From Parcubacteria group bacterium GW2011_GWB1_42_6 (GTDB taxonomy: Bacteria > Patescibacteriota > Minisyncoccia > Portnoybacterales > GWB1-42-6): a stretch of 64,000 nucleotides of DNA. Below the pieces are notes generated by a model that did no database searches, had not been told where the DNA came from, and was given only the letters and a program-made list of their open reading frames with translations. How positions within the stretch are numbered: the first letter of the stretch is position 1; the number at the start of each line of letters is the position of its first letter. This document shows positions 24,310-62,605 of the stretch, piece after piece. The stretch is from the NCBI GenBank assembly GCA_000997475.1, contig LCEC01000001.1:375-64374 (forward strand), read 5' to 3'. The translations under genes were made by a program, and so were the position numbers.

Positions 24310-24392
24310 ACCCTACGGAATTACGGATTGGTACGGATATTACGGATTTGATTTATCTGTATAATCCGTATATATCTGTAATTCAGTAGGGT
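24310..24392. repeat. TACGGAT direct/inverted heptamer array (copy 1)
   Basis: ccctacggaattacggattggtacggatattacggatt..taatccgtatat..gtagggtt. Confidence 0.6.
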
Positions 24393-41089: not shown

Positions 41090-41107
41090 CTATATAATGC
41101 GAACCTA

Positions 41108-41186
41108 CGAACTTAATGCTAACTATGCGAACTGCGAAATCTGTTAAACCGGATTTATTTTCGCAGTTCGTAGGTTGGCATTAGAT
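41108..41186. repeat. GCGAA-motif palindrome
   Basis: gcgaacctacgaact ... agttcgtaggttggc inverted repeat with internal gcgaa repeats. Confidence 0.6.
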
Positions 41187-43652: not shown

Positions 43653-43728
43653 GAGTTTGCGCTCCCCCTCTTCCTTGCGCGCTTCATATTTATAGCATAG
43701 AATGAGGTAAATTACAAACCCCCGCACC

Positions 43729-43868
43729 TAATCGGCATAATTGAATTCTCTTTCTTCTCTGTCATCCCCGCGCAGGCGGGGATCCAGATTAATTCAGAAC
43801 CTGGATTCCCCCCGTAGCTGCGGGGCGGGAATGACAAATATAAAGCCAATGCCGATTAGGTGCGGGGG
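43729..43868. mobile_element. MITE-like element A with 19-bp perfect terminal inverted repeats
   Basis: TIR CCCCCGCACCTAATCGGCA / TGCCGATTAGGTGCGGGGG; internal multi-hairpin core. Confidence 0.6.
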
Positions 43869-45653: not shown

Positions 45654-45682
45654 TTGACAAGGTGATCAATAGGGAGTATACT
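45654..45682 (+). promoter_or_regulatory. Near-consensus sigma70 promoter
   Basis: TTGACA, 17-nt spacer, TATACT. Confidence 0.55.
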
Positions 45683-46270: not shown

Positions 46271-46767
46271 ATCTTTTATGATTTTAAAAACGACGCAATC
46301 CATCACACTCAAGAGTAAAACAGGTTGTGCTCTGATTATTTATTATTGCGGAACAAAATAAAAAGAGCGCTTCGTTTGAAAGCGCCCTCATTTTGATGCA
46401 GGCGAGAAAAAATTTTATCTAAGAATTCTCGAGTTCTCTCAGATATTTTTTCCTCGTCGGGAATTATCGTGTTAGACGACCGCCTTGTTTTCGCATTAGC
46501 GAATGTTTCGAGTTCTTAAGCTCGATCTTTTTAGGCGTTGATAACACTAACTCCCTTTATAACTTTTGGAAAATTTGGATTACCCGTCCTTCCCTTTTGG
46601 ACTTGGGAAGAGTTGGGGTGATGCTCGACTCATACTGCCTCCGTGGAATGGAGTTTTCTTGAGTGAGCGGAAGGTACTGACCGATCGAAAGCCGATAAAA
46701 ACAGCCTTCGATCATATATAGAGATTATAAAATAACGATGAGCTTGTCAAGTCTTTTCAATTTTACA

Positions 46768-46883
46768 CACACCTAGTCAGGATATTTGAATTTAATTTGG
46801 ATAATAAACAAGTTTACTCCCAATGGCTTGTTTGTCTTCGAAGGATTCTTTGAATAAAAAACAATCCTGATTAGGCGCGGGGG
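46768..46883. mobile_element. MITE-like element B, copy 1
   Basis: (c)cacctagtcagga ... tcctgattaggcgcggggg imperfect TIRs; interior is the reverse complement of copy 2. Confidence 0.55.
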
Positions 46884-46937
46884 CAAGGGAAAAGAAATCC
46901 GATTGAACTTTTGAATTTGCCGTGCTAAGATTTTTAT

Positions 46938-48809
46938 ATGACGGCCAAGGAATTACGCGGTAAATATCTTGAATTTTTCAAAGCTCGGGGGCACGCGGTT
47001 ATCCCTTCGGCTTCTTTGGTTCCGCAAAACGATCCCACAGTGCTTTTTACCACCGCCGGAATGCAACCTTTAGTGCCGTATCTTTTGGGCGAAAAGCATC
47101 CCCAAGGAAAGCGGCTTGTCAATGTTCAAAAATGCCTCCGCACCAACGATATTGATGAAGTGGGTGATGCCACTCACGGAACTTTTTTTGAAATGCTTGG
47201 CAATTGGTCTTTGGGCGATTATTTTAAAAAAGAATCGTTGAGTTGGAGCTATGAATTTTTAACTTCGCCTGAATGGTTGGGATTGGATAAAAACCGTTTG
47301 GCTGTTTCGGTTTTTGCAGGGGATGACGACGCGCCATTTGATGAAGAAGCTTTTGAAATTTGGAGATCTTTGGGTATTTCTGAAAAAAGAATCACCCGGC
47401 TTCCCAAAGAAAACAATTGGTGGGGGCCGGCCGGAGAAACCGGGCCATGCGGACCGGATTCGGAAATATTTTATTGGACCGGCGCTCCGGATCAGGTTCC
47501 GGAAAGTTTCAACGATGATAACGATCTTTGGGTGGAAATCTGGAATAACGTTTTTATGCAATATAATAAAAACATAAAAGGCTCCTTTGAACCGCTTGCG
47601 CAAAAAAATGTTGACACGGGTTTGGGGCTGGAAAGGGCGCTGGTTACTCTCAATGGCTACGACGAGATTTATAAGATTGACGTTATCCGGCCGATTATTG
47701 AAAAGATAGAAGAAATTTCAGGGAAGAAATACGATGAAACTATCTCTGAAATCCCCCTTAATCCCCCTTTTACAAAGGGGGGAAATCAGAAGGCTATGAG
47801 AATCGTGGCGGATCATTTGAAAGCGAGCGCTTTTTTAATCGCCGATGGAGTTGAGCCTTCCAATACGGAGCGAGGCTATGTTTTGCGCCGGCTGATTCGG
47901 CGCGCGGTGAGATATGGCCGGCAATTGGGAATTGAAGGAATTTTTTGTTTTAAAATCGCGCGGGTCGCGATTGAAATATACAAAGATATTTATCCGGAAC
48001 TTTCGCGGGAAGAAAATTCAATCGAAGAGCAATTAACGAAAGAAGAAGAAAAATTTGCCAAGACTCTTGAATCCGGATTGAAACAATTTGAAAATGTAAA
48101 AATCAAAATTAAAAATGACAGCGCAAAATCTGGAATTATTTCCGGGGAGATCGCTTTTAATTTGTATCAGACTTACGGTTTTCCCGTCGAGCTGACAAAA
48201 GAATTGGCCAAAGAAGCCGGATTGGAAGTTGACGAGGAAAAATTTAAGGATGAAATGAAGCGCCATCAAGAACTTTCCCGCGCCGGAGCCGAACAAAAAT
48301 TCAAAGGCGGTTTAGCCGATCATTCGGAACAAACCGTCAAATACCACACGGCGGCGCATTTGCTTTTGGCGGCTTTGCGTCAAACTTTGGGCGGAGACGT
48401 AAATCAGCGTGGCGCCAATATAACAAGCGAACGATTGAGATTTGATTTTTCGCATCCGCAAAAAATGACTCCGGAACAAATTAAAGAAGTTGAGGATTTG
48501 GTGAATGAAAAAATCAAAGAAGACTTGCCGGTTGCTTGCGAAGAGATGGCCTTGGATGAAGCGAAAGCAAAGGGAGCGACTGGAATTTTCGATTCAAAAT
48601 ACGGGGAGAGGGTGAAAGTTTATACAATTGGAAGCCCTTCGACAGGTCCTTCGACAGGCTCAGGGCAATGCTCGGGGTCCGCGGCTTTCAGCCGCGAGAT
48701 TTGCGGCGGGCCGCATGTTGAAAGAACGGGAGTTTTGGGAAATTTTAAGATCGTTAAAGAAGAATCGTGTTCGGCCGGAGTGAGAAGAATCAAAGCGGTG
48801 CTGAAATAA
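46938..48809 (+). CDS. alaS: Alanine--tRNA ligase, short form (catalytic, tRNA-recognition and editing domains; no C-Ala domain)
   Basis: N-terminal class II core, editing-domain HTAAHLL motif; 623 aa; contains two in-frame insertions. Confidence 0.85.
   Translation: MTAKELRGKYLEFFKARGHAVIPSASLVPQNDPTVLFTTAGMQPLVPYLLGEKHPQGKRLVNVQKCLRTNDIDEVGDATHGTFFEMLGNWSLGDYFKKESLSWSYEFLTSPEWLGLDKNRLAVSVFAGDDDAPFDEEAFEIWRSLGISEKRITRLPKENNWWGPAGETGPCGPDSEIFYWTGAPDQVPESFNDDNDLWVEIWNNVFMQYNKNIKGSFEPLAQKNVDTGLGLERALVTLNGYDEIYKIDVIRPIIEKIEEISGKKYDETISEIPLNPPFTKGGNQKAMRIVADHLKASAFLIADGVEPSNTERGYVLRRLIRRAVRYGRQLGIEGIFCFKIARVAIEIYKDIYPELSREENSIEEQLTKEEEKFAKTLESGLKQFENVKIKIKNDSAKSGIISGEIAFNLYQTYGFPVELTKELAKEAGLEVDEEKFKDEMKRHQELSRAGAEQKFKGGLADHSEQTVKYHTAAHLLLAALRQTLGGDVNQRGANITSERLRFDFSHPQKMTPEQIKEVEDLVNEKIKEDLPVACEEMALDEAKAKGATGIFDSKYGERVKVYTIGSPSTGPSTGSGQCSGSAAFSREICGGPHVERTGVLGNFKIVKEESCSAGVRRIKAVLK
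47752..47786. repeat. In-frame GC-rich palindromic insertion within alaS
   Basis: tccccctta atccccctttt acaaa ggggggaaat encodes PLNPPFTKGGN. Confidence 0.6.
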
Positions 48810-48856
48810 CAGTTAATGCAAAATGCAAATTTCAAAACGCAGATTACTCTCTTTTT

Positions 48857-48935
48857 GTCATTCCCGCGCAGGCGGGAATCTAGATTAATTCAGAATTAGA
48901 CTTGGGTCTGGATCCCCGTTTTCACGGGGATGACA
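48857..48935. repeat. TIR-less copy of the MITE-A core (GTCAT..ATGAC multi-hairpin unit)
   Basis: gtcattcccgcgcaggcgggaatctagattaattcagaa.. is about 80% identical to 43761-43837. Confidence 0.55.
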
Positions 48936-48973
48936 TCTATGGTTGGGTTTATTTTAATTTTAAAATTTATTTT

Positions 48974-49417
48974 ATGTCTGACATCAAAAAACCCGGCGTG
49001 GGCTTTGGGGTGATGATTGAAAAGAAAGGTAAAATCCTTTTGGGCCGGCGCCATAGCGATCCCAAGAAAGCTTCCAGCGAACTTCACGGCGAAGGCGCTT
49101 GGACGATGCCCGGAGGCAAATTGCATTTTGGCGAAACTCCCGAGGAAGGGGCTTGCCGGGAAGTTTTGGAAGAAATCGGCGTGAAAATAAATTCAAGAAG
49201 GCTCAAGCTCATAAGCGTTTCCAATGATATGGTGAGCGACGCGCATTTTATCACTTTGGGATTCAGATATCCGAGTTTTAAGGGCAGTCCCAAAGTGATG
49301 GAGCCGGATGAAATCGTTGAATGGCGCTGGTTTAATCCCAAGGCATTGCCCAGCCCTATGTATTTTCCCAGCGAACGGGTGTTCAAGCATTTTAAGAGAG
49401 GCAAAATATACGGATAG
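48974..49417 (+). CDS. NUDIX hydrolase
   Basis: Nudix box GGKLHFGETPEEGACREVLEEIGV. Confidence 0.75.
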   Translation: MSDIKKPGVGFGVMIEKKGKILLGRRHSDPKKASSELHGEGAWTMPGGKLHFGETPEEGACREVLEEIGVKINSRRLKLISVSNDMVSDAHFITLGFRYPSFKGSPKVMEPDEIVEWRWFNPKALPSPMYFPSERVFKHFKRGKIYG

Positions 49418-49530
49418 GTGGATATCTTTATTGCGGAGAAGCGTTTTTTTGGATATAATTATTTAAGAAAATATCGGGCGCGAAAGAATCCTTCGTTTTG
49501 CCGCGCGCGCTTTTGAGTTGTAAATAAACT

Positions 49531-49647
49531 CCCGCACCTAGTCAGGATTGTTTTTTATTCAAAGAATCCTTCAAAGACAAACAAGCCATTGGGAGTAAAC
49601 TTGTTTATTATCCAAATTAAATTCAAATATCCTGACTAGGCGCGGGG
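49531..49647. mobile_element. MITE-like element B, copy 2 (inverted relative to copy 1)
   Basis: cccgcacctagtcagga ... tcctgactaggcgcgggg. Confidence 0.55.
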
Positions 49648-49659
49648 ATAAAATAAACT

Positions 49660-51537
49660 ATGGCGAAATTGATTTATTTAAAACCGAATCAAGACATAAC
49701 TTCGATAATCGGCTATCTTTGGCAAACCAAAGAACCTGAAATCGCGCTCGTTGCTCCAAAAAATTCGGTTTTATTGGAGAATCGCATTGCGCTTAAAATT
49801 CTCAAAAGAGAAGCGGACAACTGCGAAAAAGAGATAATTTTTGTCATCAAGGATTCGGAAAGCCGCGAAGCGGTGGAAGATCTGGGCTTTAAAACCAAAG
49901 TTTCCTGGCCGAAAAGCGAAATAAGCGAAGAAGAATCCGAAGAGGAAGAAAAAGTTATCAAAGAAATGCCGGCTGAAGATTACCAATTGATGATTGGCAA
50001 TCAGCTGAAGATAAAGCACGGAGCGGCTTCCAAGATCCGCTTTAGCGACATCAAAAAACCCGGGAATAAGAAAAAAGATTCGGATGAAAAAATTAAGAAA
50101 ATAAAATCAGCCGAAGAAAGCGAAGATGATTTTATTTTGGGACATTTGGCGGAACCGGAAAAAGAATTTTCTTTGCCCATTCCCCAAGAAACCGATGATT
50201 TTAAGGAGAAAGCGGAGACTTTCCTTAAAATAAAAAATTTCGCTCCGCGCGAAGAAATTAAAGAAGAAACGGTTCAAGAAGAATCTGTTCCTTTTGAAAA
50301 AATATTTGGCCGGGAAGAAAAGGAGATATTCATTAAGCCGCAAATTCATAACTTTTCCAAGAAGAAATTTTCCGGTTTCAAATTTCCTGATTTTTCTTCA
50401 AAGATCGTCATGCTTTTTGTCGGTTCGGCCGTGATTGTGGCGGGATTGGTTTTTTATTTTGTTTTGCCCAAAGCCGAAATCGAGGTTGTTCCAAAGGTGG
50501 AGGCGACCGAACAAGATTTAAACGTTGTGGCCGACAAGGGATCGGCGTTTATTGATTTGGGGAAAGGCGTAATTCCGGCGCAAGTGATTCGTTTTGATAA
50601 AAAATCATCTCGGGAATTCAACACTACGGGTGAAAGCCAAGCCAACGAGAAAGCTCGAGGCGTTATGACGGTTTATAATGAATACAGCTCTTCGCCGCAG
50701 GGCTTGGTTGAAAAAACGCGTTTTGTTTCGGCGGATGGAAAAGTTTTTCGGACCGTCAAATCCATCACTGTTCCGGGAGCTAAAATCAGCGAAGGGAAAG
50801 TGATCGCGAGTTCAATAGATGTTGAGGTGGCGGCCGACGAAGCGGGCGAATCGTATAATATTTCTCCGGGAAAATTTTTAATCCCCGGTTTTCAGGGATC
50901 GCCAAAATACGAAGGTTTCTACGGCATAACCAAAGACGCCATGTACGGCGGCACGACGGGAATTTCTAAAATTGTTTCGGCGGATGATGTCGAAATGGCC
51001 AAAAATGAAATCTGGGCGGATCTTCAAAAAGATTTGGAGAGCGACATAAAAACGCAAACGCCCGAAGGGTTGAAACTTTTGCCGGAAGCCAAAAAATTGG
51101 AAATCAGCTCATTCGATCCATCCGTTAAGGCGGGCGGCCGGGCTGATAAATTCACGATGACGGTCAAAGGAACCGGAATTCTCATTTTTTTTGACGAGCG
51201 CGACATTATTGAATTAGCCAGAGAAAATTCGGAAATTGAATCTTTGGAAAGCAAAGATTATTCCGATAAATTGTCGGAAGTTGTTTATTCCGAAGTTAGC
51301 GCTGATTTTGAAAAAAGCAAAATAAGTTTTAAAGCAAAGGTGGGGGAAAAATTGGTTTGGAAAATCAATGATTCCATTCTTAAGAGATTGATCGCCGGCC
51401 GGAATGAAACTGAAATCAGAACGATTTTGAATGACCGCGAAGAAGTGTTGAGCGCCAGGATTCTTTTCTGGCCTTTCTGGGTGGATGCCGTGCCTGATAA
51501 CCCGGACAGAGTGAATGTGAGCGTTAAAACGGATTGA
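49660..51537 (+). CDS. Hypothetical single-pass membrane protein with acidic linker
   Basis: 625 aa; central TM IVMLFVGSAVIVAGLVFYFVL; no recognisable motifs. Confidence 0.4.
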   Translation: MAKLIYLKPNQDITSIIGYLWQTKEPEIALVAPKNSVLLENRIALKILKREADNCEKEIIFVIKDSESREAVEDLGFKTKVSWPKSEISEEESEEEEKVIKEMPAEDYQLMIGNQLKIKHGAASKIRFSDIKKPGNKKKDSDEKIKKIKSAEESEDDFILGHLAEPEKEFSLPIPQETDDFKEKAETFLKIKNFAPREEIKEETVQEESVPFEKIFGREEKEIFIKPQIHNFSKKKFSGFKFPDFSSKIVMLFVGSAVIVAGLVFYFVLPKAEIEVVPKVEATEQDLNVVADKGSAFIDLGKGVIPAQVIRFDKKSSREFNTTGESQANEKARGVMTVYNEYSSSPQGLVEKTRFVSADGKVFRTVKSITVPGAKISEGKVIASSIDVEVAADEAGESYNISPGKFLIPGFQGSPKYEGFYGITKDAMYGGTTGISKIVSADDVEMAKNEIWADLQKDLESDIKTQTPEGLKLLPEAKKLEISSFDPSVKAGGRADKFTMTVKGTGILIFFDERDIIELARENSEIESLESKDYSDKLSEVVYSEVSADFEKSKISFKAKVGEKLVWKINDSILKRLIAGRNETEIRTILNDREEVLSARILFWPFWVDAVPDNPDRVNVSVKTD

Positions 51538-51851: not shown

Positions 51852-51960
51852 TTTTCAACCAACCGTGCTAAGCAATCCTTCTTCTTCGATGAAGAGGTTC
51901 CGCGGAAGCAAAGCGGAGCTGACGGTGCGTTTAGCGCGTTTTGTATTGGTTTTTTTCCTC

Positions 51961-52065
51961 ACTAATTACGAATAAATTTACTCCAATTACGAATAATTAT
52001 AGATTAATTGCGAGATGATGCGCTTCATTCGTAATTAGTTCTTAATTCGTAATTGGCGAGGATTC
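51961..52065. promoter_or_regulatory. TTCGTAATT palindromic module upstream of rpmJ
   Basis: Two copies of YYAATTACGAAT, a spacer, two copies of ATTCGTAATTRG, then GAGGATTC ATG. Confidence 0.5.
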
Positions 52066-52179
52066 ATGAAAGTTCGCGCTTCGGTTAAAAAAATATGCCA
52101 GAAATGCAAACTCGTGCGCCGAAAAGGCAAATTGCGGGTTATTTGCGCGATCAAAAAACATAATCAAAGACAAGGATGA
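52066..52179 (+). CDS. rpmJ: 50S ribosomal protein L36
   Basis: [37 protein letters not shown]; TGA stop. Confidence 0.8.
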
Positions 52180-52189
52180 AATCATTTTA

Positions 52190-52262
52190 ACATTTTAGCA
52201 TTTTAGCATTTTAGCATTTGAATTATTGAATTTTGTTAATATGCTAACATGTTGATATGTTA
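52190..52262. repeat. ATTTTAGC x3 array plus inverted TGCTAACATG motifs upstream of rpsM
   Basis: cattttagcattttagcattttagcatttgaatt..tatgctaacatgttgatatg. Confidence 0.5.
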
Positions 52263-52274
52263 AAATGACTAGCC

Positions 52275-53312: not shown

Positions 53313-53392
53313 ACCCTACGGAATTACGGATTAGTACGGATATTACGGATTCAAATTGGATTTATCCGTATATTCGTAAAAATCCGTAAATC
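53313..53392. repeat. TACGGAT direct/inverted heptamer array (copy 2)
   Basis: ccctacggaattacggattagtacggatattacggatt.. first 38 nt almost identical to 24310-24347. Confidence 0.6.
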
Positions 53393-54039: not shown

Positions 54040-54049
54040 TTCGCTCCTC

Positions 54050-54148
54050 ACCAATTACGAATAAATCCAATCCAATTACGAATTAAAGCCGGCTACGAAT
54101 AGTTTTATATTCGTAATTGGTTCCAATTCGTAATTAGCGAGGAAAAAT
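54050..54148. promoter_or_regulatory. TTCGTAATT palindromic module upstream of rpoA
   Basis: ccaattacgaat x2 ... attcgtaattgg ttccaattcgtaattagcGAGGAaaaatATG. Confidence 0.5.
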
Positions 54149-55078: not shown

Positions 55079-55149
55079 TGCCAATCTGCGAATGACACGC
55101 AAATGCCGCAAATTTATTCGTATGCACGCAATTTGCATGCTATTCGCAG

Positions 55150-55184
55150 AATTTGAATAAAATTTGTAAATTGGAATTATATTT
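55150..55184 (+). promoter_or_regulatory. Conserved 34-nt module abutting the rplQ start codon
   Basis: atttgaataaaatttgtaaattggaattatattt immediately 5' of ATG; near-identical copy at 61467-61501. Confidence 0.5.
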
Positions 55185-55517
55185 ATGAGAAAATTCGGAA
55201 GAGAAACGGATCAGCGCCGGGCATTTATCAGAAGCTTGGCTTCCAATCTCGTTTTAAACGAAAAAATAAAGACCACCGAAGCTCGCGCAAAAGAATTGCG
55301 CTCTTTCGTGGAAAGAATTATAACCCAAACCAAAAGCGGAAATTTGGCCGGATTAAGATTGGCCAAAAAAGAACTTTCCGCGCCGGCTTTAAAAAAACTT
55401 TCAAAAGAAATAGCTCCTCGTTTTAAAGAAAAAAGGAGCGGCTATACCCGCATTACCAAACTTGGACGCAGAATGAGCGACAGCGCCAGCATGGCTTTTA
55501 TCGAGTTGATCAAATAA
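55185..55517 (+). CDS. rplQ: 50S ribosomal protein L17
   Basis: MRKFGRETDQRRAFIRSLASNLVLNEKIKTT. Confidence 0.9.
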   Translation: MRKFGRETDQRRAFIRSLASNLVLNEKIKTTEARAKELRSFVERIITQTKSGNLAGLRLAKKELSAPALKKLSKEIAPRFKEKRSGYTRITKLGRRMSDSASMAFIELIK

Positions 55518-57873: not shown

Positions 57874-58899
57874 TCAAAAATTTTCCGAAAGATAATAGAA
57901 ATTTTCATTGCCAAAATCGTAATAAATTTGAGGGGATTTGGCGGTGATAAAATCGGCGATATTGCGGCGGTCGCGGCCGTCAAGCTCGATAATTTTTATT
58001 TTATTTTCAATCACAAAGCAAATATGATCGTTGTCCGGATAAAAAATCGCTTGTTCGATTTTTTGGGCAAAACGGGTGATCATTTCTTTCTCGCCCGGCT
58101 TCTTGTAGGGCTGGAGCATTATTTCTTCCGCGTATAGAACCCAAATTTCGCTTTCCGAAAAAAACAGCAATCTTTTGTTATCATTGGAAAATTCCGCGCC
58201 GATGATTCCCGAAGCGATTGATTCAAGAATTTTCATTTCATCGTTTAACAAAAACAGTTCCTTTTGGGGAGTAATGACAGCGAATTTGTTTCGGTCGTTG
58301 GACGCGATAATTTCATAAGAAGAATGTTCCGGCAGGGGATTTTTTGAAATTTGTTCTTTGAGGGAGCCGTTTAAATTTGATCTGTAGAGATTGCGGTTTT
58401 CTTCGGAAATATAAAAAATTTCGTTATCTTTCAAAATCCAGCCCGGGGTGCTGGACGCGGCATTTAAAGCTTGTCCTTGCTTTTTTTTATTGCCGGAATT
58501 TTCCAAAAAATCTTTTATTGTGGTGGTGGCATTTTGGCTTAAAAGTTCGGCTTGCGGATTGGTCGGTATAAGCAAAACGCTTCTTGCTTCAGTGACGAGC
58601 TTGGGAGAAATATTAAGATTTTTTTCCCAGGAATGATAACCTTCCATTTCTATTTTTACGTTATAGGCGCGCGGAGCCAGATGTGAAAAAAGAGAAGGAG
58701 TTCTTCTTTCTTTTTCTCCATCAATAAAGATTTGCGCCTGGTTGGGCGTTGATTTGATATAAAGCCCTCCGGTTTTGGCCAGCCGCCAATTTTTCCAGTC
58801 AAACGAATAACCCGCCGTGTAGAGAATCGTGGGCGGGACGCTTATGAGAAATATAAGCACAAACAGGTAAAAAATCAGCCGTCGTTTGTTTCTGGTCAT
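57874..58899 (-). CDS. Membrane-anchored PEGA-domain protein
   Basis: N-terminal TM, then a PEGA-like segment (TPNQAQIFIDGEKERRTPSLFSHLAPRAYNVKIEMEGYHSWEKNLNI); the ORF-track entry extends to 58935. Confidence 0.45.
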   Translation of the reverse strand: MTRNKRRLIFYLFVLIFLISVPPTILYTAGYSFDWKNWRLAKTGGLYIKSTPNQAQIFIDGEKERRTPSLFSHLAPRAYNVKIEMEGYHSWEKNLNISPKLVTEARSVLLIPTNPQAELLSQNATTTIKDFLENSGNKKKQGQALNAASSTPGWILKDNEIFYISEENRNLYRSNLNGSLKEQISKNPLPEHSSYEIIASNDRNKFAVITPQKELFLLNDEMKILESIASGIIGAEFSNDNKRLLFFSESEIWVLYAEEIMLQPYKKPGEKEMITRFAQKIEQAIFYPDNDHICFVIENKIKIIELDGRDRRNIADFITAKSPQIYYDFGNENFYYLSENF

Positions 58900-61402: not shown

Positions 61403-61466
61403 TATGCGAATCGCGCAAATTCATGCGAATTGCGCACATGCGAATAAAATGCGAATCCCATTCGAG

Positions 61467-61501
61467 GCATTTGAATAAAATTCGTAGATTGGAATTATAT
61501 T
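61467..61501 (+). promoter_or_regulatory. Conserved 34-nt module abutting the GT4 start codon (copy of 55150-55184)
   Basis: atttgaataaaattcgtagattggaattatatt immediately 5' of ATG. Confidence 0.5.
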
Positions 61502-62605
61502 ATGACTATTGGCATTAACGCCTCGGCGGCTGTCAAAAAGAATAGAACCGGAGTGGAAGAATACGCTTATCAGCTCATAAAGCATTTGGCGATGATTCCC
61601 GAGTCCCAAAAGCATCGTTTTTTTCTATATTTGCCATCCGCAGTTTTAGCAAAGGAAGGTTTGCCCGACAATGTTTTTGATTTTTCTTTCCCTGAAAATT
61701 TTATAATAAAAAAACTTTGGTGGCCGCTGCCTTTCTTCTGGACGCAAATAAGATTGTCTCTGGAAATGATTTTTTTTGCGCCGGACGTTCTTTTCATCCC
61801 CGTTCATATTTTGCCTTTCATTCATCCAAAAAAATCCATTGTTTGTGTTCACGGCCTTGAATATGAATATCTGCGCGGATTCTATTCTTTTTCCCATCGT
61901 TTGTTTTTGCGTTGGAGCACCAAATTTTCCGCCGCGAAATCTTTCCGGATAATCGCGGTTTCTCAAAATACCAAGAACGATTTGGCAAAAATATATAAGA
62001 CAGATACTGATAAAATAAAAGTGGTAAAACACGGGATTTCCTTTCCCCCTTTAGAAAGGGGGATTAAGGGGGATTTTTTAAGGAAGAAAGAAAAATATAT
62101 TTTATATCTAGGCCGCATCGAAACCAAGAAGAATATCCAAGGAATTATTGAAGCGTATGAAATTCTGAATAACAAATATAGCATTCACCACAAGCTTGTT
62201 TTAGCCGGTTCAAAAGGATACGGCCATAAGAATTTAAAAATACCGAGCGATGTGATTCAGACCGGATTCGTGAGCCAAGAAAAAAAAGAAGTCTTGATGA
62301 ACAACGCCGCAATATTTCTATTTCCCTGTTTTTACGAGGGTTTTGGTTTGCCGATTCTTGAAGCTCAAGCGGCGGGAATTCCCGTCGTGACTTCTTATAA
62401 TTCTTCAATGCCGGAAGTGGCCGGGGAAGGGGCTTTATTTGTTGATCCGCGCAATCCGGCTCAAATCGCCCGGGCCGTTAAAAAAATAATTGACGACAAT
62501 CTCTTGCGTGATAAACTGATACAATCGGGATTTGAGAACATAAAAAAATTTTCTTGGGAAAAATGCGCTCGGGAAACGCTGGATTTTTTAAGCAGCTTGG
62601 AATAG
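61502..62605 (+). CDS. Glycosyltransferase family 4 (GT-B)
   Basis: C-terminal EGFGLPILEAQAAGIPVVT sugar-donor-binding motif. Confidence 0.75.
   Translation: MTIGINASAAVKKNRTGVEEYAYQLIKHLAMIPESQKHRFFLYLPSAVLAKEGLPDNVFDFSFPENFIIKKLWWPLPFFWTQIRLSLEMIFFAPDVLFIPVHILPFIHPKKSIVCVHGLEYEYLRGFYSFSHRLFLRWSTKFSAAKSFRIIAVSQNTKNDLAKIYKTDTDKIKVVKHGISFPPLERGIKGDFLRKKEKYILYLGRIETKKNIQGIIEAYEILNNKYSIHHKLVLAGSKGYGHKNLKIPSDVIQTGFVSQEKKEVLMNNAAIFLFPCFYEGFGLPILEAQAAGIPVVTSYNSSMPEVAGEGALFVDPRNPAQIARAVKKIIDDNLLRDKLIQSGFENIKKFSWEKCARETLDFLSSLE
62041..62075. repeat. In-frame GC-rich palindromic insertion within the GT4 gene
   Basis: ctttccccctttagaaagggggattaagggggat encodes SFPPLERGIKGD. Confidence 0.55.

What the first reader, a model, noticed from the sequence alone, without database searches (positions are those of the whole stretch)
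46768..49647. Two inverted copies of a ~115-bp MITE-like element bracket alaS and the NUDIX gene
Copy 1 (46768-46883) and copy 2 (49531-49647) share about 95% identity in opposite orientation. Each has imperfect TIRs (CCCGCRCCTAGTCAGGA). Together they delimit a 2.7-kb segment containing alaS, a TIR-less MITE-core copy and the NUDIX hydrolase. This geometry would permit inversion by recombination between the copies, or could mark a composite mobile unit. The segment also sits next to the 1.8-kb non-coding region.
Basis: seen in the sequence. Interest (0 to 1): 0.6.

Follow-up and report, generated by a model that had tools for sequence, protein, structure and literature searches.

The report
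Inverted MITE-like repeats flanking alaS
Two nearly identical ~118-bp hairpin-forming repeats really do sit in opposite orientation on either side of the alanyl-tRNA synthetase and NUDIX genes of a groundwater Parcubacteria genome. They belong to a small, apparently undescribed family of miniature transposon-like elements, but nothing indicates that they flip or mobilise the genes between them.

Summary
Copy A1 (46765-46883) and copy A2 (49531-49647) are reverse complements, 97.3% identical over 110 nt, and each is closed by its own terminal inverted repeat (TIR).

They belong to a wider set of short elements with conserved termini (CCCGCRCCTARTC). A third element, B (43719-43868), has the same termini and a different core. 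A-type or related elements occur in at least four other Parcubacteria-like contigs. One of these carries a tRNA-Glu gene and interrupts a resident tRNA gene that is intact in a relative, which is evidence of insertion.

Three of seven elements are flanked by 4-5-bp AT-rich direct repeats. No transposase partner was found, and public copy number is very low.

The inversion and composite-transposon reading is not supported:
- Eleven independent contigs that span both copies are collinear with the window.
- alaS keeps this position and orientation in four of five relatives examined.
- The outer terminus of A1 is degenerate.
- No recombinase gene lies nearby.

Only NUDIX is lineage-specific. The "TIR-less core" between alaS and NUDIX matches the core of element B, not the core of A.

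Verdict: a new, low-copy MITE-like family in a candidate-phyla-radiation (CPR) bacterium. It is ordinary in kind and modest in interest.

The parts
46765..46883 (-). Copy A1 of the type-A TIR element, in reverse orientation relative to A2. The inner end (46864-46883, ATCCTGATTAGGCGCGGGGG) is intact. The outer arm keeps only CCTAGTCAGGAT (46772-46783); the outermost 7 nt are ACACACA.
49531..49647 (+). Copy A2 of the type-A TIR element. TIRs are 49531-49548 (CCCGCACCTAGTCAGGAT) and 49629-49647 (ATCCTGACTAGGCGCGGGG). The AT-rich 80-nt core contains an internal hairpin, AAACAAG..CTTGTTT.
43719..43868 (.). Element B. It has a perfect 20-nt TIR (CCCCCGCACCTAATCGGCAT) with the same 13-nt termini as A but a different core made of GTCATYCCCGCGCAGGCGGGRATC-type hairpin repeats. 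It is flanked by CAAA/CAAA and ends 8 nt before the mnmA ATG.
48847..48934 (.). TIR-less hairpin repeat between alaS and NUDIX. It matches the core of element B, not the core of A. It gives a weak sub-threshold Rfam match to WsnRNA46. Two contigs break here.
46938..48809 (+). alaS (623 aa, short CPR-type alanyl-tRNA synthetase). It is syntenic and in the same orientation in most relatives.
48974..49417 (+). NUDIX hydrolase gene. It is absent from this position in relatives L015, L016 and L038, so it is a lineage-specific insertion.
49431..49459 (+). Promoter-like site TTGCGG-17-TATAAT upstream of A2. The block is alignable with the region upstream of the orthologous gene in L015. If it is used, A2 lies in the 5' UTR of the next gene (inference).
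   Evidence: sequence
49660..51537 (+). 625-aa gene with a weak GlxA beta-barrel Pfam match. Its ATG lies 12 nt after the right end of A2.
46903..46931 (+). Weak promoter-like site TTGAAC-17-TAAGAT between A1 and the alaS ATG. It lies inside the bracketed segment.
   Evidence: sequence; below the threshold

Best explanation
A1 and A2 are two copies of a ~118-bp non-autonomous, TIR-bounded mobile element (MITE-like). It belongs to a small Parcubacteria-restricted superfamily defined by conserved 13-nt termini (CCCGCRCCTARTC). The inner TIR positions vary between subtypes, but the two arms change together.

The copies arose within this lineage by copy-and-insert, or were later homogenised by gene conversion. 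They landed in opposite orientation in two AT-rich intergenic spacers: upstream of alaS, and in the leader of the gene after NUDIX. A1 has since lost its outer terminus and is probably immobile.

The bracketed alaS-NUDIX segment is a passive consequence of two nearby insertions. It is not a mobile or invertible unit.

Shown: the repeat, the TIRs, the family members, one filled-versus-intact site, synteny, and a single orientation in all assemblies.
Inferred: transposition in trans by an unidentified transposase, a 4-5-bp target duplication, and any effect on expression.
For: Repeat and TIRs.

No coding capacity: the longest open frame is 35 aa.

Hairpin folding: A2 has z = -4.8 as DNA and -6.3 as RNA.

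Same termini, different cores:
- element B in the window;
- L011 = L013 = L014, type A, 87% identical, with a perfect 19-nt TIR;
- L010, which carries a tRNA;
- L015 and L038, with CC(Y)CRCRCCTT termini.

Conservation: the element is 87% identical between two organisms whose coding DNA is about 70% identical.

Insertion shown at L010: the element interrupts a tRNA-Glu whose 26-nt 5' part and 30-nt 3' part are identical to the intact tRNA of relative L035.

Flanking direct repeats: CAAA (B), TTTA (L011) and TTTAT (L015).

Assembly behaviour: contigs break inside A1 (L008, L009), as expected for repeats.
Against: - No autonomous partner or transposase was found. None is called in the annotated 1-61.4 kb of the window.
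- Public copy number is very low. Exact two-termini scans found 1 locus in 185,579 species genomes and 4 metagenome contigs representing 2 distinct sites. A peptide-word search over six-frame translations found nothing.
- A2, A1, L010 and L038 lack a clean 4-5-bp duplication.
- No strain lacks either copy, so type A has no empty site.
- Arm covariation (5 of 19 pairs changed on both sides, 95.8% of cells paired) fits a structural role equally well. So does the recurrent position 7-17 nt upstream of start codons.
Confidence: 0.65

Rival explanations
1. The elements are, or have become, functional cis-acting hairpins in mRNA leaders. Possible roles are RNase III processing or stability sites, translation modulators, or insulators between adjacent transcription units. 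On this view selection, not mobility, maintains them, and the A1/A2 similarity reflects gene conversion.
For: - The two arms change together: 5 of 19 pairs have changes on both sides, and only 2-3 of 500 shuffles reach the observed values.
- All elements fold as long closed hairpins, with z from -4.3 to -7.7 for the intact elements; A1, which lacks its outer arm, is weaker (z = -2.2).
- Termini lie close upstream of start codons: 8 nt for B to mnmA, 12 nt for A2 to the GlxA-like gene, about 17 nt in L011, and about 7 nt in L015.
- The window and L015 both carry a TIR element between a conserved promoter-like block and the ATG of the same orthologous gene, although the cores are unrelated.
- The element is more conserved than coding DNA between two organisms.
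Against: - L016, L017 and L038 have no such element at these positions.
- The cores are unrelated between subtypes.
- A1 lies 54 nt from the alaS ATG, upstream of the only promoter-like site, and has a broken stem (z only -2.2).
- One family member is plainly an insertion that disrupted a tRNA gene.
- There is no Rfam match.
- Most genes in this window have no Shine-Dalgarno motif, so the GGGG terminus is unlikely to be needed as one.
Confidence: 0.2
2. The inverted pair mediates inversion of the 2.65-kb alaS-NUDIX segment, either by RecA-dependent recombination across the 67-nt identical stretch or by a dedicated invertase. This would give two genomic isoforms.
For: The geometry is right: 110 nt at 97.3% identity in inverted orientation, with identical runs of 67 and 31 nt. 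The alaS promoter-like site lies inside the segment, so an inverted form could still express alaS (sequence).
Against: - Eleven independent contigs from different samples and assemblers span both copies, and all are collinear with the window.
- The orientation equals the ancestral one in the relatives.
- No invertase or recombinase gene is called in the annotated 1-61.4 kb of the window.
- The flanks of A1 and A2 show no swapped-flank signature. A2 has the same 9-mer, AAATAAACT, on both sides in direct orientation.
- The three A1/A2 differences are fixed in all strains, with no hybrid copies.
Confidence: 0.05
3. A1 and A2 are the ends of a composite transposon that carries alaS, NUDIX or both as cargo.
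For: Two related TIR elements bracket the genes. NUDIX is absent at this position in relatives.
Against: - alaS is syntenic and in the same orientation in L015, L016, L017 and L038.
- The outer terminus of A1 is degenerate, ACACACA in place of CCCCGCG.
- No direct repeat flanks the whole unit.
- NUDIX lies between the TIR-less hairpin repeat and A2, not between two TIR elements.
- No second copy of the unit was found.
Confidence: 0.03

Closest known systems
Correia elements (CREE/NEMIS) of Neisseria, and similar bacterial MITEs such as ERIC/IRU and RUP (recalled from general knowledge, not tested here)
   Same: About 100-150 bp, non-coding, bounded by TIRs, and able to fold into a long hairpin. 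They sit in intergenic spacers close to gene starts, so they can become part of mRNA leaders. Subtypes share termini but differ in their cores.
   Different: There is no sequence similarity. The termini are C-run/G-run (CCCGCRCCTARTC). The flanking repeats, where present, are 4-5-bp AT-rich sequences, not the TA of Correia elements. Copy number is very low, compared with hundreds of copies. One relative carries a tRNA gene. No transposase partner is known, and no evidence for RNase III processing or promoter activity was obtained here.
Composite transposons (two IS or MITE copies mobilising the DNA between them)
   Same: Two related TIR elements in inverted orientation bracket genes.
   Different: The outer end of A1 is defective. 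alaS is ancestral at this locus. There is no duplication flanking the unit and no transposase.
Invertible DNA switches (Hin/Gin/Fim type) and recombination between inverted IS copies
   Same: Inverted repeats flank a gene-bearing segment.
   Different: No recombinase gene is called nearby. Only one orientation appears in 11 assemblies. The repeats are complete small mobile-element copies rather than short recombination sites.
REP/REPIN elements mobilised by RAYT transposases
   Same: Short intergenic elements that form long hairpins from two inverted arms.
   Different: The arms are not themselves palindromic REP units. There is no conserved GTAG motif and no RAYT gene is called in the annotated part of the window.

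Membership tests
MITE (non-autonomous TIR DNA transposon) | Short (under about 500 bp) with no coding capacity | tested here: met
   117-150 bp. The longest open frame is 35 aa, and stops occur in the other frames.
MITE (non-autonomous TIR DNA transposon) | Terminal inverted repeats | tested here: met
   A2 has 18 nt with 1 mismatch, B a perfect 20 nt, L011 a perfect 19 nt. A1 keeps only 12 nt of its outer arm.
MITE (non-autonomous TIR DNA transposon) | Target-site duplication of fixed length | tested here: inconclusive
   CAAA (B), TTTA (L011) and TTTAT (L015) abut the termini. A2 has a 9-mer repeat offset by 3 nt. L010 and L038 have only CA. A1 cannot be scored.
MITE (non-autonomous TIR DNA transposon) | Multiple dispersed copies in a genome | tested here: inconclusive
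   The 64-kb window holds two A copies and one B copy. The rest of this genome could not be fetched. Public scans found very few copies.
MITE (non-autonomous TIR DNA transposon) | Insertion polymorphism (filled versus empty site) | tested here: inconclusive
   Type A: all strains carry both copies, and the nearest relative has only 67% alaS identity. Superfamily: the L010 element interrupts a tRNA-Glu that is intact in L035.
MITE (non-autonomous TIR DNA transposon) | A related autonomous IS with matching TIRs | not testable with these tools
   No transposase is called in the annotated 1-61.4 kb of the window. Single-TIR hits in viral contigs are unpaired and lie in high-GC phage DNA.
Composite transposon | Intact outer ends on both flanking elements | tested here: not met
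   The outer end of A1 reads ACACACA, against the consensus CCCCGCG.
Composite transposon | Cargo is foreign to the locus | tested here: not met
   alaS is syntenic in L015, L016, L017 and L038. Only NUDIX is lineage-specific.
Invertible DNA switch | Both orientations present in the population | tested here: not met
   All 11 contigs spanning both copies are collinear. Minority isoforms in raw reads cannot be tested here.
Invertible DNA switch | Adjacent site-specific recombinase gene | tested here: not met
   Pfam annotation of the neighbouring genes and of called genes across 1-61.4 kb of the window shows none; the last ~2.5 kb was not scanned.
Integron attC site | Core sites R'' RYYYAAC and R' GTTRRRY at the ends | tested here: not met
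   The termini are CCCGCRCCTARTC / GAYTAGGYGCGGG.
Known RNA family (Rfam 15) | Covariance-model match at the gathering score | tested here: not met
   No match in the window at gathering threshold. At the E-value threshold there is only WsnRNA46 on the TIR-less repeat, 28.9 bits against a 65.3-bit cut-off.

The most novel reading that the evidence does not exclude
The CCCGCRCCTARTC-terminated elements may be a CPR-specific class of hairpin 'cassettes' moved by an unidentified enzyme. Such cassettes could carry a functional RNA gene: the L010 member delivers a tRNA-Glu(CUC) into the anticodon loop of the resident tRNA-Glu and replaces it. They may also preferentially settle in mRNA leaders a few nucleotides upstream of start codons, where the transcribed stem is processed or regulates translation. 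On this reading A1 and A2 would be cargo-less members acting on alaS and the gene after NUDIX.
Probability: 0.12. Interest if true: 0.6.

Novelty: new member of a known kind. Interest (0 to 1): 0.3.

Why it matters
CPR/Patescibacteria genomes are small and usually described as poor in mobile DNA. I found no description of MITEs in them in the searchable literature.

A low-copy TIR family shared between Parcubacteria lineages has several practical consequences:
- It explains contig breaks and strain-level structural variation in these metagenome-assembled genomes.
- It gives markers for recent DNA exchange between co-resident CPR organisms.
- It cautions against reading every inverted-repeat pair as a switch.

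The tRNA-carrying relative hints that such elements can replace essential RNA genes.

Tried and rejected
- Rfam at gathering and E-value thresholds gave nothing for A or B.
- ARAGORN found no tRNA or tmRNA in the window.
- An exact two-termini pattern scan of 185,579 species genomes gave one locus and did not recover the source genome. The same scan of metagenome contigs gave four contigs at two sites. Viral contigs gave none.
- A single-TIR scan of viral contigs gave seven unpaired hits in high-GC phage DNA, judged to be chance or unrelated.
- A search with concatenated six-frame peptides of A2 against 5.8 billion proteins gave no hit.
- blastn against the plasmid and phage collections gave no match.
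- A six-frame Pfam scan of the 1.8-kb gene-free stretch next to A1, looking for a decayed transposase, found nothing.
- An archaeal-type bulge-helix-bulge (splicing-endonuclease) tRNA intron or a group I intron reading of the L010 insertion was rejected. There is no complementary helix next to the splice sites, no intron model match, and the insert is only about 130 nt. Group I introns at tRNA position 35/36 are known in Patescibacteria (PMC13011429), but that paper does not mention tRNA-Glu or TIR elements.
- The idea that the GGGG terminus serves as a Shine-Dalgarno sequence was not pursued, because most genes here lack such a motif.
- The swapped-flank test for a past inversion was negative.
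Full report
**Observation**

The window contains one outstanding inverted repeat: 46761-46881 versus 49531-49651, 121 nt and 93% complementary. blastn refines this to 110 nt at 97.3% identity, 46772-46881 versus 49640-49531. There are three mismatches, at 46839, 46871 and 46876, and identical runs of 67 and 31 nt. The TIR 12-mer CCTAGTCAGGAT (up to 1 mismatch) occurs only at the four element ends, against 0.06 matches expected by chance.

A2 (49531-49647) has an 18-nt TIR with one mismatch. In A1 (46765-46883) the inner end is intact. The outer arm keeps only 12 nt, and its outermost 7 nt read ACACACA instead of CCCCGCG.

The elements have no coding capacity. A2, B and the related elements fold as long hairpins closed by the TIR stem. 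A1 folds much less convincingly (z = -2.2).

**Context**

The organism is a Rifle-aquifer Parcubacteria, named 'Parcubacteria group bacterium GW2011_GWA1_42_7' by NCBI. GCA_000998935.1 is 99.99% identical over the shared region.

The gene order is efp(-), mnmA, a 1.8-kb gene-free stretch, A1, alaS, a TIR-less hairpin repeat, NUDIX, A2, a 625-aa gene with a weak GlxA match, infA, then S13-S11-S4-rpoA-L17-L13-S9. No transposase or recombinase gene is called in the annotated 1-61.4 kb of the window; the last ~2.5 kb was not scanned for protein families.

**A family, not a pair**

A third element, B (43719-43868), has a perfect 20-nt TIR, CCCCCGCACCTAATCGGCAT. Its outer 13 nt match those of A, but its core is different. 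That core is made of GTCATYCCCGCGCAGGCGGGRATC-type hairpins. The 'TIR-less core' between alaS and NUDIX matches this B core, not the A core.

The pattern CCCGCRCCTARTC-N(90-120)-GAYTAGGYGCGGG found the following:
- One locus in 185,579 species genomes (L010).
- Four metagenome contigs. One is the A2 site itself. The other three (L011 = L013 = L014) are a single site in another Parcubacteria. That site carries a type-A element 87% identical to A1 and A2, with a perfect 19-nt TIR, although coding DNA of the two organisms is only about 70% identical.

Relatives fetched for synteny revealed two further elements with CC(Y)CRCRCCTT termini. One is L015 2245-2357, upstream of the orthologue of the gene that follows A2. 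The other is L038 7473-7571, between L36 and S13.

Across five elements, 5 of the 19 TIR pairs show changes on both arms, and 95.8% of cells pair.

**Evidence for mobility**

In L010 the element (1122-1250) carries a complete tRNA-Glu(CUC). It sits in the anticodon-loop region of another tRNA-Glu gene. The 26-nt 5' part and 30-nt 3' part of that outer gene are identical to the uninterrupted tRNA-Glu found at the same position, downstream of murF, in relative L035. Two other relatives, L036 and L037, carry at that position a tRNA of the type found inside the element. This amounts to a filled-versus-intact site comparison for the superfamily.

Direct repeats abut three of seven elements: CAAA for B, TTTA for L011 and TTTAT for L015. 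The others show none, or only CA. A2 has a 9-mer, AAATAAACT, on both sides, but the right-hand copy is offset by 3 nt.

Contigs L008 and L009 break inside A1. L009 continues into a different 16-nt core behind the same TIR, which hints at further family members.

For type A itself, no strain lacks a copy. The nearest relative has only 67% alaS identity.

**Tests of the inversion and composite-unit reading**

- Eleven distinct contigs from different samples and assemblers span both copies: L001-L006 and L019-L023. All are collinear with the window, with no hybrid copies.
- alaS lies between mnmA and the infA / ribosomal cluster, in the same orientation, in L015, L016, L017 and L038. In L039 it is in a different context. 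alaS is therefore ancestral at this locus and currently in the ancestral orientation.
- NUDIX is missing between alaS and the next gene in L015, L016 and L038. It is a lineage-specific insertion upstream of a promoter-like block that is still alignable between the window and L015.
- The outer terminus of A1 is defective, no duplication flanks the unit, and no recombinase gene is called nearby.
- Occasional RecA-dependent inversion across the 67-nt identical run remains physically possible, but it is not seen.

**Mechanism**

The best-supported reading is a non-autonomous TIR element, mobilised in trans by an unidentified transposase, that inserted twice near alaS. A1 is now a decayed copy.

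The main rival is that the hairpins are retained for a cis-acting role in mRNA leaders. Termini lie 7-17 nt upstream of start codons for B, A2, L011 and L015. The window and L015 both carry an element between the conserved promoter-like block and the ATG of the same gene. Against this rival, other relatives lack the elements, the cores are unrelated, A1 has a broken stem and lies upstream of the alaS promoter-like site, and there is no Rfam match.

**Comparison and novelty**

The elements work like classical bacterial MITEs such as Correia, ERIC and RUP. That comparison rests on general knowledge. They share no sequence with anything in Rfam, the plasmid collection or the phage collection. I found no paper describing MITEs in CPR bacteria. 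A 2026 paper on group I introns in Patescibacteria tRNA genes (PMC13011429) does not cover the tRNA-Glu case.

I class this as a new member of a known kind. Membership of the MITE class is only partly established. Size, TIRs and non-coding nature are met. Target duplication and copy number are inconclusive. The autonomous partner is untested.

Noticed in passing
L010:1078-1296 (contig CAYQPG010000007.1): A TIR element with the same 13-nt termini carries a complete tRNA-Glu(CUC). It interrupts the anticodon-loop region of a second tRNA-Glu gene, whose two halves are identical to the intact tRNA of relative L035. The outer gene also has extra nucleotides and looks inactivated. A further copy of the tRNA 3' end lies about 170 nt downstream (1455-1470).
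   Followed up: partly
window:44960-46760: A 1.8-kb stretch with stops in all six frames, no Pfam or Rfam match, and no similarity in relatives. It nonetheless has strong sigma-70-like sites (45654-45682 +, 45660-45632 -, 45327-45299 -) and terminator-like hairpins on the minus strand (45363-45337, 46389-46363). It may encode unknown small RNAs.
   Followed up: partly
window:47749-47790 and 62042-62076: alaS carries an in-frame 12-aa insert (PLNPPFTKGGNQ) that is absent from four relatives. Its DNA is 89% identical to a sequence at 62042-62076, so a small repeat appears to have inserted into a coding region. A second variable insert (PSTGPSTGSGQCSGSAA) lies at about 48630-48690.
   Followed up: partly
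window:23088-23215; 41092-41186; 51956-52067 and 54045-54143; 52182-52268; 24310-24384 and 53313-53392; 55142-55188 and 61460-61505: Several other families of short TIR or hairpin repeats sit in intergenic spacers. Some are shared with the unrelated contig L011 at 85-95% identity. The TCCTCAC...GCGAGGA family ends 5 nt before the rpoA ATG.
   Followed up: no
window:43653-43688 and 57880/57881: Strain-level structural variants. Most other assemblies replace 43653-43688, just left of element B and upstream of efp, with an unrelated 99-nt sequence. L003 and L021 have a different left neighbour from 43672. A 97-nt indel occurs at 57880/57881.
   Followed up: partly
L009:1-40 (matches window from 46864): The contig starts with CAGGAT-GACTCAAAACAGAAAT-ATCCTGATTAGG. 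This is the same right TIR as A1, preceded by a different 16-nt core that is absent from the window. It may be a minimal hairpin variant or another family member picked up at a contig end.
   Followed up: partly
L015:2245-2357 and L038:7473-7571: Further elements with CC(Y)CRCRCCTT termini in relatives. The L015 element is flanked by TTTAT/TTTAT and lies between the conserved promoter-like block and the ATG of the orthologue of the gene downstream of A2.
   Followed up: partly
window:48974-49417: The NUDIX gene is absent from the alaS-downstream position in L015, L016 and L038, so it is a lineage-specific acquisition. It is bounded on the left by the TIR-less hairpin repeat. Its origin was not traced.
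   Followed up: no
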